The translations under genes were made by a program, and so were the position numbers. Below are positions 33,454 to 60,682 of a stretch of 64,000 nt of DNA, piece by piece; within the stretch, counting starts at the first letter, position 1; every line of letters starts with the position of its first letter. Origin of the DNA: Escherichia phage ES12; sequence record MN508614.1; one strand, written 5' to 3'. The notes under the pieces were generated by a model. The model worked only from the letters and a program-made list of their open reading frames with translations. It did not search any database and was not told where the DNA came from.

Positions 33454-33484
33454 TTTTGAATAAATACCCTTAAAAGGAGGGTCT

Positions 33485-34141
33485 ATGACAGCACCTAGAA
33501 TATCATTTTCGCCCTCTGGTATTCTGTTTGGTGTTCTAGATCGCTTGTTCAAAGATAACGCTACCGGGAAGGTTCTTGCTTCCCGGGTAGCTGTCGTAAT
33601 TCTTTTGTTTATAATGGCGATTGTTTGGTATAGGGGAGATAGTTTCTTTGAGTACTATAAGCAATCAAAGTATGAAACATACAGTGAAATTATTGAAAAG
33701 GAAAGAAATGCACGCTTTGAATCTGTCGCCCTGGAACAACTCCAGATAGTTCATATATCATCTGAGGCAGACTTTAGTGCGGTGTATTCTTTCCGCCCTA
33801 AAAACTTAAACTATTTTGTTGATATTATAGCATATGAAGGAAAATTACCTTCAACAATAAGTGAAAAATCACTTGGAGGATATCCTGTTGATAAAACTAT
33901 GGATGAATATGCAGTTCATTTAAATGGACGTCATTATTATTCAAACTCAAAATTTGCTTTTTTACCAACTAAAAAGCCTACTCCCGAAATAAATTACATG
34001 TACAGTTGTCCATATTTTAATTTGGATAATATCTATGCTGGAACAATAACCATGTACTGGTATAGAAATGATCATATAAGTAATGACCGCCTTGAATCAA
34101 TATGTGCTCAGGCGGCCAGAATATTAGGAAGGGCTAAATAA
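33485..34141 (+). CDS. t: holin, 218 aa
   Basis: MTAPRISFSPSGILFGVLDRLFKDNATGKVLASRVAVVILLFIMAIVWY... = T4 holin T. Confidence 0.95.
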   Translation: MTAPRISFSPSGILFGVLDRLFKDNATGKVLASRVAVVILLFIMAIVWYRGDSFFEYYKQSKYETYSEIIEKERNARFESVALEQLQIVHISSEADFSAVYSFRPKNLNYFVDIIAYEGKLPSTISEKSLGGYPVDKTMDEYAVHLNGRHYYSNSKFAFLPTKKPTPEINYMYSCPYFNLDNIYAGTITMYWYRNDHISNDRLESICAQAARILGRAK

Positions 34142-57941: not shown

Positions 57942-58151
57942 TTAAATTACATGATTATTTATAATAAATTCTCGCGGAACGTTAAAATACCCGATTTTAG
58001 TTAATATAACAACATCGCCGTTAATAATTACCGGAGAATAATCTTCTGGAGCATTAAATTTCCAATGGGCTCTAATATTATATCCATCAGAACCAAATGC
58101 TCGCGTAGCTGGTCTCCCAGCTTTTTGCCATGCGTAGAAATCAAATTTCAT
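57942..58151 (-). CDS. hypothetical protein, 69 aa
   Basis: ORF track; ATG start. Confidence 0.5.
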   Translation of the reverse strand: MKFDFYAWQKAGRPATRAFGSDGYNIRAHWKFNAPEDYSPVIINGDVVILTKIGYFNVPREFIINNHVI

Positions 58152-58342
58152 TTTGAATGCTCTATAATTAATTTTAAAGCTTCTTCACTGACAAAAATTT
58201 CGTCAGGACCTTCTATAACTTCAACCATACGAAGTTGATTAGTTAAGAGCTCACATACGAGCTCCTTGTTATAATCTTTAAATAGCTGGTCAATACGTTT
58301 CTTGTGGGCTTTCTTAAGCTGGCGTTTATTTAAACGAGCCAT
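58148..58342 (-). CDS. hypothetical protein, 64 aa
   Basis: ORF track; ATG start. Confidence 0.5.
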   Translation of the reverse strand: MARLNKRQLKKAHKKRIDQLFKDYNKELVCELLTNQLRMVEVIEGPDEIFVSEEALKLIIEHSK

Positions 58343-58860
58343 TAATAACCTCGGTCTTGACGAGCGAAGTTTTCAGCATTTTTCAGATAATAAAGTTTAA
58401 AGATTTCTTCAGCCGTAAGACCGAGGCCTTGGAACATGTTCAGAACGAAATGAAGAATATCAATCATTTCGAATTTAATTTCCAACTGGTCTTGTGGAGA
58501 CAAATCAGTAATCAGAGTTTCACGTCGTTCACCATGTTGAGCTTTCCAAGGCTTCCATACAGCAGATGCATCTTTTTCACCATTGCTCATACCACCAAGA
58601 GAAGTCAATAGTTCGCGGAATTCATCATCAATATAATCTTTCTGATTACGCAGCCAATCAACAACTTCACCCGCAGTAGCCAAATCATCAGGATGACGGT
58701 TATATTCAGGTTTATCTTTAGCTAAACGAACCTGCAGAGATTTCTGCATATCAAGCATAACTTGCAACGGGTCTTTTTCATCACCGAGAATATCCCAGTA
58801 TTCATTTTGAGCTTTATCAGCGCCTTCAATCAGTTGTGAACATTCATTAAAGTATGCCAT
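58342..58860 (-). CDS. 56: dCTP pyrophosphatase (dCTPase-dUTPase), 172 aa
   Basis: From ATG at 58860: MAYFNECSQLIEGADKAQNEYWDILGDEKDPLQVMLDMQ...; ORF track 5' extension would run through the promoter. Confidence 0.85.
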   Translation of the reverse strand: MAYFNECSQLIEGADKAQNEYWDILGDEKDPLQVMLDMQKSLQVRLAKDKPEYNRHPDDLATAGEVVDWLRNQKDYIDDEFRELLTSLGGMSNGEKDASAVWKPWKAQHGERRETLITDLSPQDQLEIKFEMIDILHFVLNMFQGLGLTAEEIFKLYYLKNAENFARQDRGY

Positions 58861-58894
58861 TATTTTTCCTTTCAATTCATGGGTTAGTAGATTA

Positions 58895-58918
58895 ATTATA
58901 CAATAAATATATAAAGCA
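58895..58918 (-). promoter_or_regulatory. MotA-dependent middle promoter for gene 56
   Basis: Minus-strand TTGCTTTA (MotA box) followed 11 nt later by TATAAT, ~35 nt upstream of gene 56 ATG. Confidence 0.55.
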
Positions 58919-58931
58919 ATAAGGAGGACAT

Positions 58932-59132
58932 ATGGTACAAAAATTAATGGCACTTGTTAATGCCATCAAAGGTAATAAAAAGCGTATAGCTTTTACTATT
59001 TCTGCTATGGTAGGAATTTTACTCTGGAACTTTATTTTATCACCTGTTGCAATTGCACATGGTATTAATATTCCAGTAGTTACTCTTGATACATTCGTAG
59101 ATTTAGCATTTGCTTTGGTTGGGTTAATTTAA
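58932..59132 (+). CDS. small two-helix membrane protein, 66 aa, plus strand
   Basis: ATG preceded by AAGGAGG at ideal spacing; MVQKLMALVNAIKGNKKRIAFTISAMVGILLWNFILSPVAIAHG... hydrophobic; convergent with gene 61. Confidence 0.5.
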   Translation: MVQKLMALVNAIKGNKKRIAFTISAMVGILLWNFILSPVAIAHGINIPVVTLDTFVDLAFALVGLI

Positions 59133-60157
59133 ATCTTAGCATATTTAGATAGCCGCATTTTAGCCATCAACCCTTGGGCAATATTATTTTTCATATATTC
59201 CATAATTTGTTTAGGGGTTGCACCTTCCTTTCTAATCATATCATTAACATCTTTTGATTTCCAGGGAGATTTGTCCCAAAACATAACCCTTTCTCCTGCA
59301 TCAACCAATTTAGTCATTCGTTTAATAGTGTCAGGGTGACGAGGTTCATTATCTAAAACCCATACACGTCTATCTTTAAATGGAACAATTTCTAGGTCTA
59401 ATTGACCACCCGTAATAGCTATACCATTTTCAATAAAAAGTGAATCTATAGGTCCTTCTAGAACATATACATCACCATCTTTAACTCGTTCGACTCCATA
59501 GATTTTTGTTGCCTCAGGATAAGCTTTAATGGTGATATATTTTTGAGGAGCATTTTTCTTTAATGCACGTCCTTGAAAAGACTCAGCTTTTCCATTAGCA
59601 TTATAAATTGGAATAACAAGACGAGGCTCAGATATTTCCTTTTTATATGTTCCCGGTGCTATGCTATTAACCAATTTAGGCCATTCGGTTGTAAACCAAA
59701 GATATTTCCATTTATCCTTTGGAATACAACGAGCTTTTACATATTTTATAATTGGATGGTCTTCCGCCAGTTTATCTAATCTAACACATGACGGAAGAGA
59801 TTTAATTATTTTCTTCTCAGGTTGTTTAGGAAGTTCTTTAGGTTTTTCTACTGGACGACTTTTACCTTTTTCTTTTCTTATTTCAAAGATATACTCACGA
59901 TATAAATCGGGTTCAAACTCCTTTAAATATATTCCGATTGGTGCATGATAGTTACAGTTATAACAATGAATATTTCCTTCATTATTATCACCATAATACC
60001 ATCCACGGGCTTTATTCTGGTCGGTTTTTGAATCTCCACACACTGGGCATCTAAACCGTAATTTAAAAGTTGAACTATTATTTACTTGTGTGAATTTAGG
60101 TAAATGAGCTAATGCACGATACGCAAACTCATTATCAATCCAAGGTATTGATGACAT
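59129..60157 (-). CDS. 61: DNA primase, 342 aa
   Basis: MSSIPWIDNEFAYRALAHLPKFTQVNNSSTFKLRFRCPVCGDS... zinc ribbon + TOPRIM. Confidence 0.95.
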   Translation of the reverse strand: MSSIPWIDNEFAYRALAHLPKFTQVNNSSTFKLRFRCPVCGDSKTDQNKARGWYYGDNNEGNIHCYNCNYHAPIGIYLKEFEPDLYREYIFEIRKEKGKSRPVEKPKELPKQPEKKIIKSLPSCVRLDKLAEDHPIIKYVKARCIPKDKWKYLWFTTEWPKLVNSIAPGTYKKEISEPRLVIPIYNANGKAESFQGRALKKNAPQKYITIKAYPEATKIYGVERVKDGDVYVLEGPIDSLFIENGIAITGGQLDLEIVPFKDRRVWVLDNEPRHPDTIKRMTKLVDAGERVMFWDKSPWKSKDVNDMIRKEGATPKQIMEYMKNNIAQGLMAKMRLSKYAKI

Positions 60158-60325: not shown

Positions 60326-60682
60326 TTAACCTCTATTCATAAAAGCATTAAAAATTTGGTCATCAATAGATGGAATAGCAACTTTTTCTGCATCATTTAG
60401 CAAATCATTAATTTCATCAGATAGCATAACACATGTACCTTTATTTCCTGTAATTGTTACTGCGCAATTACGAACGTTTTCTTTATTAAATTTTAGGTTA
60501 ATATTTTCGTAATGAAAATCCTTTAATGCTGAATATATTTTTAAAATAAAATTGTCTTTTACTACAATAAACCCAACCTCACTATTAAAACGTGGTTCAT
60601 GGAAACTGTAATAAACCTTTTCATCTATAAAATCGTATGAAATTTTTTCCATTTTTAAATATGAAAATTCAGAACTATACAT
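60326..60682 (-). CDS. hypothetical protein, 118 aa
   Basis: ORF track; ATG start. Confidence 0.5.
   Translation of the reverse strand: MYSSEFSYLKMEKISYDFIDEKVYYSFHEPRFNSEVGFIVVKDNFILKIYSALKDFHYENINLKFNKENVRNCAVTITGNKGTCVMLSDEINDLLNDAEKVAIPSIDDQIFNAFMNRG

What the first reader, a model, noticed from the sequence alone, without database searches (positions are those of the whole stretch)
58861..59132. The 56-61 interval contains no methyltransferase gene, only a plus-strand 66-aa membrane ORF overlapping the gene 56 middle promoter
As I recall the T4 map, dam (DNA adenine methyltransferase) lies between genes 56 and 61. Here that interval is only ~270 bp and encodes, on the opposite strand, a 66-aa two-helix hydrophobic protein with a strong AAGGAGG RBS. 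Its 5' end overlaps the MotA-box/-10 promoter of gene 56 and its stop overlaps the gene 61 stop. An opposite-strand gene in a long minus-strand early block implies separate, possibly late or antisense, regulation. No dam-like ORF was seen anywhere in the window.
Basis: partly seen in the sequence, partly recalled or inferred. Interest (0 to 1): 0.5.

Follow-up and report, generated by a model that had tools for sequence, protein, structure and literature searches.

The report
Common dam-less T-even layout, conserved small gene
This T4-like phage (ES26) really has no Dam methylase gene, but that is the usual state of its relatives, and the small membrane-protein gene in the gap is a conserved gene that T4 itself also carries next to dam, so the finding is real but ordinary.

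Summary
The window is Escherichia phage ES26 (Tequatrovirus, 100% match). Gene 56 (58342-58860, -) and primase gene 61 (59129-60157, -) are 268 bp apart. That gap holds a plus-strand 66-aa ORF (58932-59132) with an AAGGAGG ribosome-binding site, and its stop overlaps the gene 61 stop. No Dam homologue exists in the window or in the whole 166,756-bp ES26 genome.

It is not unusual. T4 carries the same ORF (64/66 identical, unannotated in the T4 RefSeq and GenBank records) between dam and 61. T6 lacks dam at this locus and names the ORF dam.1. About 293 phage records have the contiguous dam-less junction, against about 182 with T4-type dam. Mosigvirus, Gaprivervirus and Kanagawavirus also have 56 | ORF | 61 with no dam there. 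So dam is an accessory insertion, and the ORF does not replace it.

The ORF is a real gene. Within-genus pN/pS is 0.08-0.29, and variable sites by codon position are 16/3/35. It is PHROG 2024, function unknown. A conserved NATAAATA late-promoter-like motif lies 15-22 nt before the ATG, the same layout as holin gene t in this window. It is predicted to be a small membrane protein. Late expression and function are inferred, not shown.

The parts
58342..58860 (-). Gene 56 (dCTP/dUTP pyrophosphatase), T2/T6-type allele.
   Evidence: Translation homologous to T4 gp56. Annotated as dCTP pyrophosphatase in the matching records.
58895..58900 (-). -10 element (TATAAT) of the gene 56 middle promoter. 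This is the oriA primer promoter in T4.
   Evidence: Aligns with the -10 of P(M)16.53 annotated in T4 record X01416.
58912..58920 (-). MotA box (ATTGCTTTA) of the gene 56 middle promoter.
   Evidence: Aligns with the 'mot-box' annotated in X01416. The element is also present, with one change (ACGCTTTA), in Mosigvirus.
58902..58909 (+). Late-promoter-like motif AATAAATA (7 of 8 of T4 TATAAATA), lying between the -10 and the MotA box of the opposite-strand promoter.
   Evidence: ATAAATA is kept 15-22 nt before the ATG in all four genera although the flanks have diverged, and it is a perfect TATAAATA in Kanagawavirus. There are only 13 ATAAATA in the 128 kb of both strands of the window. Others precede soc and holin t. 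Function is inferred.
58921..58927 (+). Shine-Dalgarno AAGGAGG of the small ORF.
   Evidence: Read directly. A purine-rich GGAG-containing Shine-Dalgarno stretch is present at the same place in the orthologues.
58932..59132 (+). dam.1-family gene (PHROG 2024), 66 aa, predicted small membrane protein.
   Evidence: PHROG hit with E 1.4e-31 over the full length. Orthologues lie at the same place in T4, T6, Mosigvirus, Gaprivervirus and Kanagawavirus. Within-genus pN/pS is 0.08-0.29, with a third-position excess of variable sites. The AF2 model has helices 2-12, 16-42 and 52-62.
58934..58969 (-). Terminator-like hairpin (11 pairs) plus T-run on the minus strand, inside codons 1-13 of the small ORF. 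It probably ends the transcript coming out of gene 61.
   Evidence: Found by the consensus scan. It is annotated as a terminator in Yersinia phage fPS-65. It is present in all Tequatrovirus copies examined and absent from the other genera.
59129..60157 (-). Gene 61 (DNA primase). Its last 4 nt are shared with the small ORF.
   Evidence: 342 aa, near-identical to T4 gp61.
58903..58922 (.). The stretch within which T4-type phages carry the roughly 0.9-kb dam insert. In fPS-65 the insert is a roughly 1.5-kb nuclease-like ORF plus dam.
   Evidence: Homology to the T4 56-side junction runs up to about 58922. Homology to the T4 ORF-side junction starts at about 58903. The exact breakpoint cannot be resolved.

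Best explanation
This is the ordinary dam-less allele of the 56-61 region of T-even phages.

Dam is an accessory, horizontally shuffled gene. In some phages it is a two-gene cassette of a nuclease-like ORF plus dam. A minority of Tequatroviruses (T4 and relatives) carry it, inserted between the gene 56 middle promoter and a conserved small gene. ES26, like T6 at this locus and like most of the genus, never had it or lost it. ES26 encodes no Dam at all, so any GATC methylation of its DNA would depend on the host enzyme.

The 66-aa ORF is that conserved small gene, called dam.1 in T6 and classed as PHROG 2024. It is a genuine protein-coding gene under purifying selection, and it is fixed tail-to-tail against the primase gene.

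The following steps are inferred, not shown:
- It is transcribed late, from a gp55-type promoter (AATAAATA) that sits back-to-back inside the gene 56 middle promoter.
- It is translated from a strong SD.
- It inserts in the inner membrane through one long helix (residues about 16-42), with the basic N-terminus in the cytoplasm.
- It acts there as a non-essential accessory factor of late infection. Its molecular job is unknown.
For: **Identity and absence of dam**
- ES26 identity at 100%.
- No Dam homologue anywhere in the genome.
- T4 map: 56, dam, an unannotated + strand 66-aa ORF (64/66 identical), 61.
- T6: 56, 'dam.1', 61, with no dam at this locus.

**Counts across phage records**
- Contiguous dam-less junction in 293 records.
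- T4-type Dam at 90% identity or more in 182 records.
- The ORF at 90% identity or more in 502 records.
- Same layout without dam in Mosigvirus, Gaprivervirus and Kanagawavirus.
- Dam homologues sit at other loci in a Klebsiella T4-like phage and in a Krischvirus.
- A published remark notes that a Dam-like gene is present in only some Tequatroviruses (PMC13390438).

**The ORF is a coding gene**
- pN/pS is 0.08 within Tequatrovirus, 0.16 within Mosigvirus and 0.29 within Gaprivervirus.
- Variable sites by codon position are 5/0/9, 6/1/17 and 5/2/9.
- Length and hydrophobic pattern are kept at 33-55% identity although synonymous sites are saturated.

**Late promoter**
- ATAAATA is conserved 15-22 nt before the ATG in every lineage, including T4, where the upstream DNA is otherwise unrelated to that of ES26.
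- The motif is rare in the window (13 in 128 kb), and the same AATAAATA-AAGGAGG-ATG layout precedes holin gene t.

**Membrane protein**
- GRAVY is 1.25, with a basic N-terminal segment (K4, K13, K16, K17, R18).
- AF2 mean pLDDT is 80.6, with a 27-residue helix.
Against: - There are no expression data of any kind. The papers searched gave nothing on this ORF.
- The promoter motif departs from TATAAATA at its first base in three of the four genera.
- T6 has ATT in place of the ATG. One phage has a 3-aa deletion in the membrane helix and one metagenomic copy is frameshifted. The gene is therefore dispensable, at least sometimes.
- The family is narrow, restricted to enterobacterial Tevenvirinae. 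It matches no family of known function, so the function is a guess.
- The direction of the dam event, gain in the T4 lineage or repeated loss, rests on parsimony only.
Confidence: 0.75

Rival explanations
1. The ORF is not a gene. The interval would be conserved only as the 3' untranslated end and terminator of the gene 61 transcript, plus promoter DNA for gene 56 or dam, and the open frame would be accidental.
For: A terminator-like hairpin for the minus strand lies inside the ORF's first codons. The ORF is not annotated in the two T4 reference records. About 1% of shuffles give an ORF this long.
Against: Substitutions show the codon periodicity and the low pN/pS of a translated gene. The frame, length and residue pattern (WNF, P38, G44, P48 invariant) persist in four genera whose DNA is saturated at synonymous sites. 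The hairpin is confined to Tequatrovirus while the ORF is not. A strong SD is conserved.
Confidence: 0.04
2. The small ORF functionally replaces dam in dam-less phages, for example as another way to escape restriction or to mark DNA.
For: It occupies the interval where T4 has dam.
Against: It co-occurs with dam in T4, in fPS-65 and, by the counts, in the roughly 180 dam-carrying Tequatrovirus records. It is a 66-aa hydrophobic protein with no enzyme-like features.
Confidence: 0.02
3. The ORF is a holin-like or pinholin-like lysis protein. One submitter labelled an orthologue 'Holin'.
For: It is small and hydrophobic, and it has the same promoter-like motif and SD layout as holin gene t in this window. 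The label 'Holin' is attached to the vB_EcoM_OE5505 orthologue.
Against: It has no charged hydrophilic C-terminal tail; the protein ends in ALVGLI. It lies between the dCTPase gene (56) and the primase gene (61), with no lysozyme gene among the annotated neighbours. The phage already has the T4 holin t. No holin family is matched in Pfam, NCBIfam or PHROGs. The label carries no evidence.
Confidence: 0.1
4. The main product is the late plus-strand RNA rather than the protein. Transcription from the AATAAATA motif would run antisense into primase gene 61, and its initiation complex would sit inside the gene 56 / oriA middle promoter. This would help shut off primase and origin-primer transcription late in infection.
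For: The late-promoter-like motif lies between the -10 and the MotA box of the opposite-strand promoter. No plus-strand terminator-like site was found in the 2.4 kb after the ORF. The tail-to-tail overlap with gene 61 is conserved.
Against: In T4 and other dam-carrying phages the motif is about 0.9 kb away from the gene 56 promoter, yet it is still conserved. Interleaving is therefore not required. Purifying selection on the amino-acid sequence shows that the protein matters. Nothing here measures RNA.
Confidence: 0.1

Closest known systems
T6 'dam.1' (AXN58073.1) and the unannotated T4 ORF at NC_000866 17738-17938 (+); PHROG 2024.
   Same: 64/66 identical to the T4 copy and identical to the T6 reading frame. 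It has the same position, the same strand and the same 4-nt overlap with gene 61, and it gives a full-length PHROG match.
   Different: In T4 the neighbour on the other side is dam rather than gene 56. T6 has ATT where ES26 has the ATG start.
T4 Dam DNA-(adenine-N6)-methyltransferase (NP_049647).
   Same: Only the map position. It lies in the same 56-61 interval in T4.
   Different: It is absent from ES26 altogether. It is present in about 182 phage records at 90% identity or more, and it sits at other loci in other T4-like genera.
Small T4 membrane proteins of accessory function (Imm, Ac, RI) and holin T. This comparison comes from general knowledge of T4, not from a test here.
   Same: It is a short protein with a membrane-length helix and a basic cytoplasmic end. 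It shares the AATAAATA-SD-ATG layout with gene t in this window.
   Different: There is no sequence or fold relationship to any of them. It differs in genomic place, and no phenotype is known.

Membership tests
Dam-family GATC adenine methyltransferase (T4 Dam type) | A protein homologous to T4 Dam encoded in the 56-61 interval or elsewhere in the genome. | tested here: not met
   tblastn gives a best E of 1.5 in the window and 1.0 in the whole ES26 genome. blastn gives noise only.
Dam-family GATC adenine methyltransferase (T4 Dam type) | A catalytic (D/N/S)PP(Y/F/W/H) motif in a methyltransferase-like ORF. | tested here: not met
   Only two ORFs of at least 120 aa carry the motif. One is a 309-aa protein that looks structural. 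The other has a GIY-YIG-type endonuclease motif.
dam.1 / PHROG 2024 small protein | A full-length profile match. | tested here: met
   E 1.4e-31 over residues 2-66 against profile positions 1-65 of 65.
dam.1 / PHROG 2024 small protein | Conserved place: plus strand, tail-to-tail with the primase gene, on the gene 56 side. | tested here: met
   T4, T6, moskry, TH57, Q7622 and fPS-65 all show this arrangement.
dam.1 / PHROG 2024 small protein | Evolves as a protein-coding sequence. | tested here: met
   pN/pS is 0.08-0.29 within genera. Variable sites by codon position sum to 16/3/35.
T4 late gene (gp55/gp33-dependent promoter) | TATAAATA about 20-35 nt before the start codon. | tested here: inconclusive
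   The motif is AATAAATA (7 of 8), ending 22 nt before the ATG. It is 8 of 8 in Kanagawavirus and its ATAAATA core is conserved in all lineages. The same variant precedes gene t.
T4 late gene (gp55/gp33-dependent promoter) | A transcript that appears late and depends on gp55, gp33 and replication. | not testable with these tools
   No RNA data were available. The literature searches found nothing.
T4 middle promoter (MotA/AsiA-dependent) of gene 56 | A MotA box ((a/t)(a/t)TGCTT(t/c)A) about 12 bp upstream of a -10 TAnnnT. | tested here: met
   ATTGCTTTA at 58920..58912 and TATAAT at 58900..58895 are collinear with P(M)16.53 annotated in X01416. Activity was not tested.
Holin | At least one transmembrane segment in a small protein. 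| tested here: met
   Hydropathy and the AF2 helix at residues 16-42.
Holin | A charged, hydrophilic C-terminal tail. | tested here: not met
   The C-terminus is hydrophobic (…DLAFALVGLI), with no basic residues after position 18.
Holin | A gene within or beside a lysis cassette (endolysin, spanin). | tested here: not met
   It lies between the dCTPase and primase genes. The T4-type holin t is elsewhere, at 33485-34141.
Holin | Causes timed membrane permeabilisation. | not testable with these tools
   This needs an experiment.

The most novel reading that the evidence does not exclude
The small gene's late promoter is built into the gene 56 / oriA middle promoter on the opposite strand. Its transcript runs antisense into the primase gene. 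The locus could therefore act as a timing switch. Once late transcription starts, it would block origin-primer and gene 56 transcription and damp primase mRNA, while delivering a small membrane protein with a late role of its own.
Probability: 0.08. Interest if true: 0.5.

Novelty: already known. Interest (0 to 1): 0.12.

Why it matters
It matters little beyond housekeeping.

- **Methylation.** ES26 and most Tequatroviruses encode no Dam. Their GATC methylation state should therefore differ from that of T4 and T2. This could matter for defence systems that sense methylated adenine and for nanopore or SMRT base-modification calls.
- **Annotation gap.** The T4 reference records (NC_000866 and AF158101) leave a well-conserved 66-aa gene unannotated between dam and 61.
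- **Unknown function.** The function of that gene is unknown. It is a tractable small target, with a deletion, a tag and late RNA mapping all feasible, but nothing here suggests a new kind of system.

Tried and rejected
- **Family searches for the ORF.** Pfam, NCBIfam and PADLOC gave no hit.
- **Fold search.** The search of the AF2 model against viral structures returned only its own family. One member carries an unsupported 'Holin' label.
- **Exhaustive HMMER search of 1.84 billion representatives.** It gave only about five true clusters, plus three long proteins (1,255-1,822 aa) hit in many separate stretches, which I judged spurious without checking them. No wider family exists.
- **IMG/VR and metagenome scans.** Each added only 8 loci, all from the genera already seen.
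- **Literature.** Searches for 'dam.1', for T4 transcription start maps and for T4 ribosome profiling found nothing on this ORF. The Miller et al. 2003 T4 review is not held.
- **Sigma-70 promoter scan.** The count in the interval was no higher than in shuffles, and no plus-strand hit lies upstream of the ORF.
- **Minus-strand hairpin as a conserved dual-use element.** Rejected, because it exists only in Tequatrovirus.
- **Counting dam-less genomes.** My first attempts, were unreliable, because dam-carrying phages also cover at least 80% of those queries. I replaced them with the junction-specific query.

Full report
**What the window is.** The 56-61 segment (58342-60157) is 100% identical to Escherichia phage ES26 (MN508618.1, Tequatrovirus). 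It is 97-98% identical to several hundred other Tequatrovirus genomes. The whole 64-kb window maps exactly to ES26 from position 64352.

**Checking the observation.**
- Gene 56 (dCTPase) is 58342-58860 on the minus strand. Primase gene 61 is 59129-60157 on the minus strand.
- The 268 bases between them hold one plus-strand ORF, 58932-59132, of 66 aa. AAGGAGG lies at 58921-58927.
- The ORF and gene 61 share four bases, so their stop codons overlap.
- The gene 56 middle promoter was placed by aligning ES26 to the T4 sequence X01416, in which Macdonald and Mosig's promoter P(M)16.53 is annotated. The -10 is TATAAT at 58900..58895 and the MotA box is ATTGCTTTA at 58920..58912.
- This promoter overlaps the ORF's upstream control region, not its coding part.
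- T4 Dam finds nothing in the window (best E 1.5) or in the complete 166,756-bp ES26 genome (best E 1.0).
- A motif scan for (D/N/S)PP(Y/F/W/H) turned up only a protein that looks structural and one with a GIY-YIG-type motif.

**What T4 and T6 have at this locus.**
T4 has 56, dam, 61.
- T4 also has about 310 bp between dam and 61, unannotated in both NC_000866 and AF158101. That stretch contains the same plus-strand 66-aa ORF, 64/66 identical, with the same AAGGAGG and the same 4-nt overlap with gene 61.
- T6 has no dam between 56 and 61, and its record names the ORF 'Dam.1; dam.1'.
- The ORF is therefore not a substitute for dam. It is dam's constant neighbour.

**How common the dam-less layout is.**
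- A 120-nt query across the 56/ORF junction is found contiguous in 293 phage records.
- T4-type Dam at 90% identity or more occurs in 182 records.
- The ORF at 90% identity or more occurs in 502 records.
- Mosigvirus (moskry), Gaprivervirus (TH57) and Kanagawavirus (Q7622) all have 56, the small ORF, then primase, with no dam there.
- More distant Dam homologues sit at quite different places. One lies beside rIIB/denB in a Klebsiella T4-like phage and one lies near nrdC/49 in a Krischvirus.
- The parsimonious reading is that dam is an accessory insertion in part of the genus. The flanks are homologous, so recombination between co-infecting phages can add or remove it.
- The insertion point lies within 58903-58922 and cannot be narrowed further, because both T4 junctions resemble that stretch.

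**Is the ORF a gene?** Yes.
- I used twenty distinct coding sequences from four genera.
- Within genera the ratio of non-synonymous to synonymous differences is 0.08 (Tequatrovirus), 0.16 (Mosigvirus) and 0.29 (Gaprivervirus).
- Variable sites by codon position are 5/0/9, 6/1/17 and 5/2/9.
- Between genera synonymous sites are saturated (pS about 0.64-0.88). Even so, the length (65-69 aa), the basic N-terminal stretch, the WNF motif, P38, G44, P48 and the hydrophobic pattern persist at 33-55% identity.
- It matches PHROG 2024 (unknown function) over its full length and nothing in Pfam, NCBIfam or PADLOC.
- The family is confined to enterobacterial Tevenvirinae.

**Expression (inferred).**
- In every lineage the ATG is preceded by a strong SD and, 15-22 nt upstream of the ATG, by ATAAATA. 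The eight-base motif is AATAAATA in ES26 and Mosigvirus, GATAAATA in T4, CATAAATA in Gaprivervirus and the perfect late consensus TATAAATA in Kanagawavirus.
- In T4 the DNA further upstream is the 5' flank of dam and is unrelated to the ES26 sequence. The motif is kept all the same, so it belongs to the ORF and not to the gene 56 promoter.
- ATAAATA occurs only 13 times on both strands of the 64-kb window. Other copies precede soc and, as AATAAATA followed by AAGGAGG and ATG, the holin gene t at 33485.
- This fits a gp55-type late promoter. No RNA or protein data were found.
- On the minus strand an 11-pair hairpin with a T-run (58969-58934) lies inside the ORF's first codons. It probably ends the transcript leaving gene 61. 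It is annotated as a terminator in fPS-65 and is specific to Tequatrovirus.
- No plus-strand terminator-like site follows the ORF. A late transcript could therefore run antisense into gene 61, but this is untested.

**The protein.**
- GRAVY is 1.25. The N-terminal segment is basic (K4, K13, K16, K17, R18), and two conserved acidic residues lie near the C-terminus.
- AlphaFold (14 sequences, mean pLDDT 80.6) gives a short N-terminal helix (2-12), a 27-residue helix (16-42), a loop around the conserved HG…P, and a short helix (52-62).
- The likeliest topology is N-terminus inside with one membrane span. The C-terminal hydrophobic helix would lie outside or be half-buried.
- The fold search found only its own family.
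- A 'Holin' label on one orthologue has no support. There is no charged C-terminal tail, there is no lysis-gene neighbourhood, and the phage has the normal holin t.
- The gene seems dispensable at times. T6 has ATT for ATG, one phage lacks three residues of the helix, and one metagenomic copy is frameshifted.

**Verdict.** The layout, however, is the common, already catalogued dam-less form of the locus. The ORF is a conserved hypothetical gene that T4 shares. The only loose ends are the unknown role of this small, probably late, membrane protein and its missing annotation in the T4 reference. Interest is low.

Noticed in passing
L011 (Yersinia phage fPS-65) 1062-2401; L028 (Klebsiella phage SmallBear) 1935-3286: In some phages dam comes with a 186-190-aa ORF directly upstream of it. 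The two copies are 42% identical (E 2e-44). The ORF carries a D…E-I-K motif of the PD-(D/E)XK kind and gives a weak, sub-threshold Pfam hit to the GATC enzyme DpnII (E 0.0045). The pair sits at different loci in the two phages, which suggests that Dam travels as the remnant of a two-gene restriction-modification-like cassette. T4 has only dam and ES26 has neither. PMC13390438 already mentions a 'restriction enzyme-like gene' beside the Dam-like gene.
   Followed up: partly
window 60326-60682 (-): The gene in the place of T4 61.2 (AdfA, the anti-DarT factor, 208 aa in T4) is only 118 aa. It matches just the C-terminal half of the Pfam AdfA model (positions 113-211 of 211, E 1.8e-8). ES26 may have a truncated or alternative anti-DarT factor.
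   Followed up: partly
window 57942-58342 (-): Two small ORFs (69 aa, DUF7422; and 64 aa, of the soc.1/soc.2 type) occupy the place where T4 has the homing endonuclease gene segF. This is the T2/T6-type arrangement.
   Followed up: partly
L001 (T6) 2572-2574: The T6 copy of the small ORF has ATT where the other phages have the ATG start. The T6 record therefore starts the CDS at the next ATG (61 aa), far from the SD.
   Followed up: no
whole ES26 genome (L004-L007): GATC is under-represented in this Dam-less phage. There are 206 sites against 543 expected from base composition (ratio 0.38). I did not compare this with dam-carrying relatives.
   Followed up: no
window 33459-33487 (+): Holin gene t (33485-34141) is preceded by AATAAATA, ten bases, AAGGAGG and then ATG. 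This is the same off-consensus late-promoter-like layout as the small ORF.
   Followed up: partly
NC_000866 17738-17938 (+) = L002 3239-3439: The T4 RefSeq and GenBank records (and KJ477684) carry no annotation for this conserved 66-aa gene, although most other Tequatrovirus records annotate it as a hypothetical protein.
   Followed up: yes
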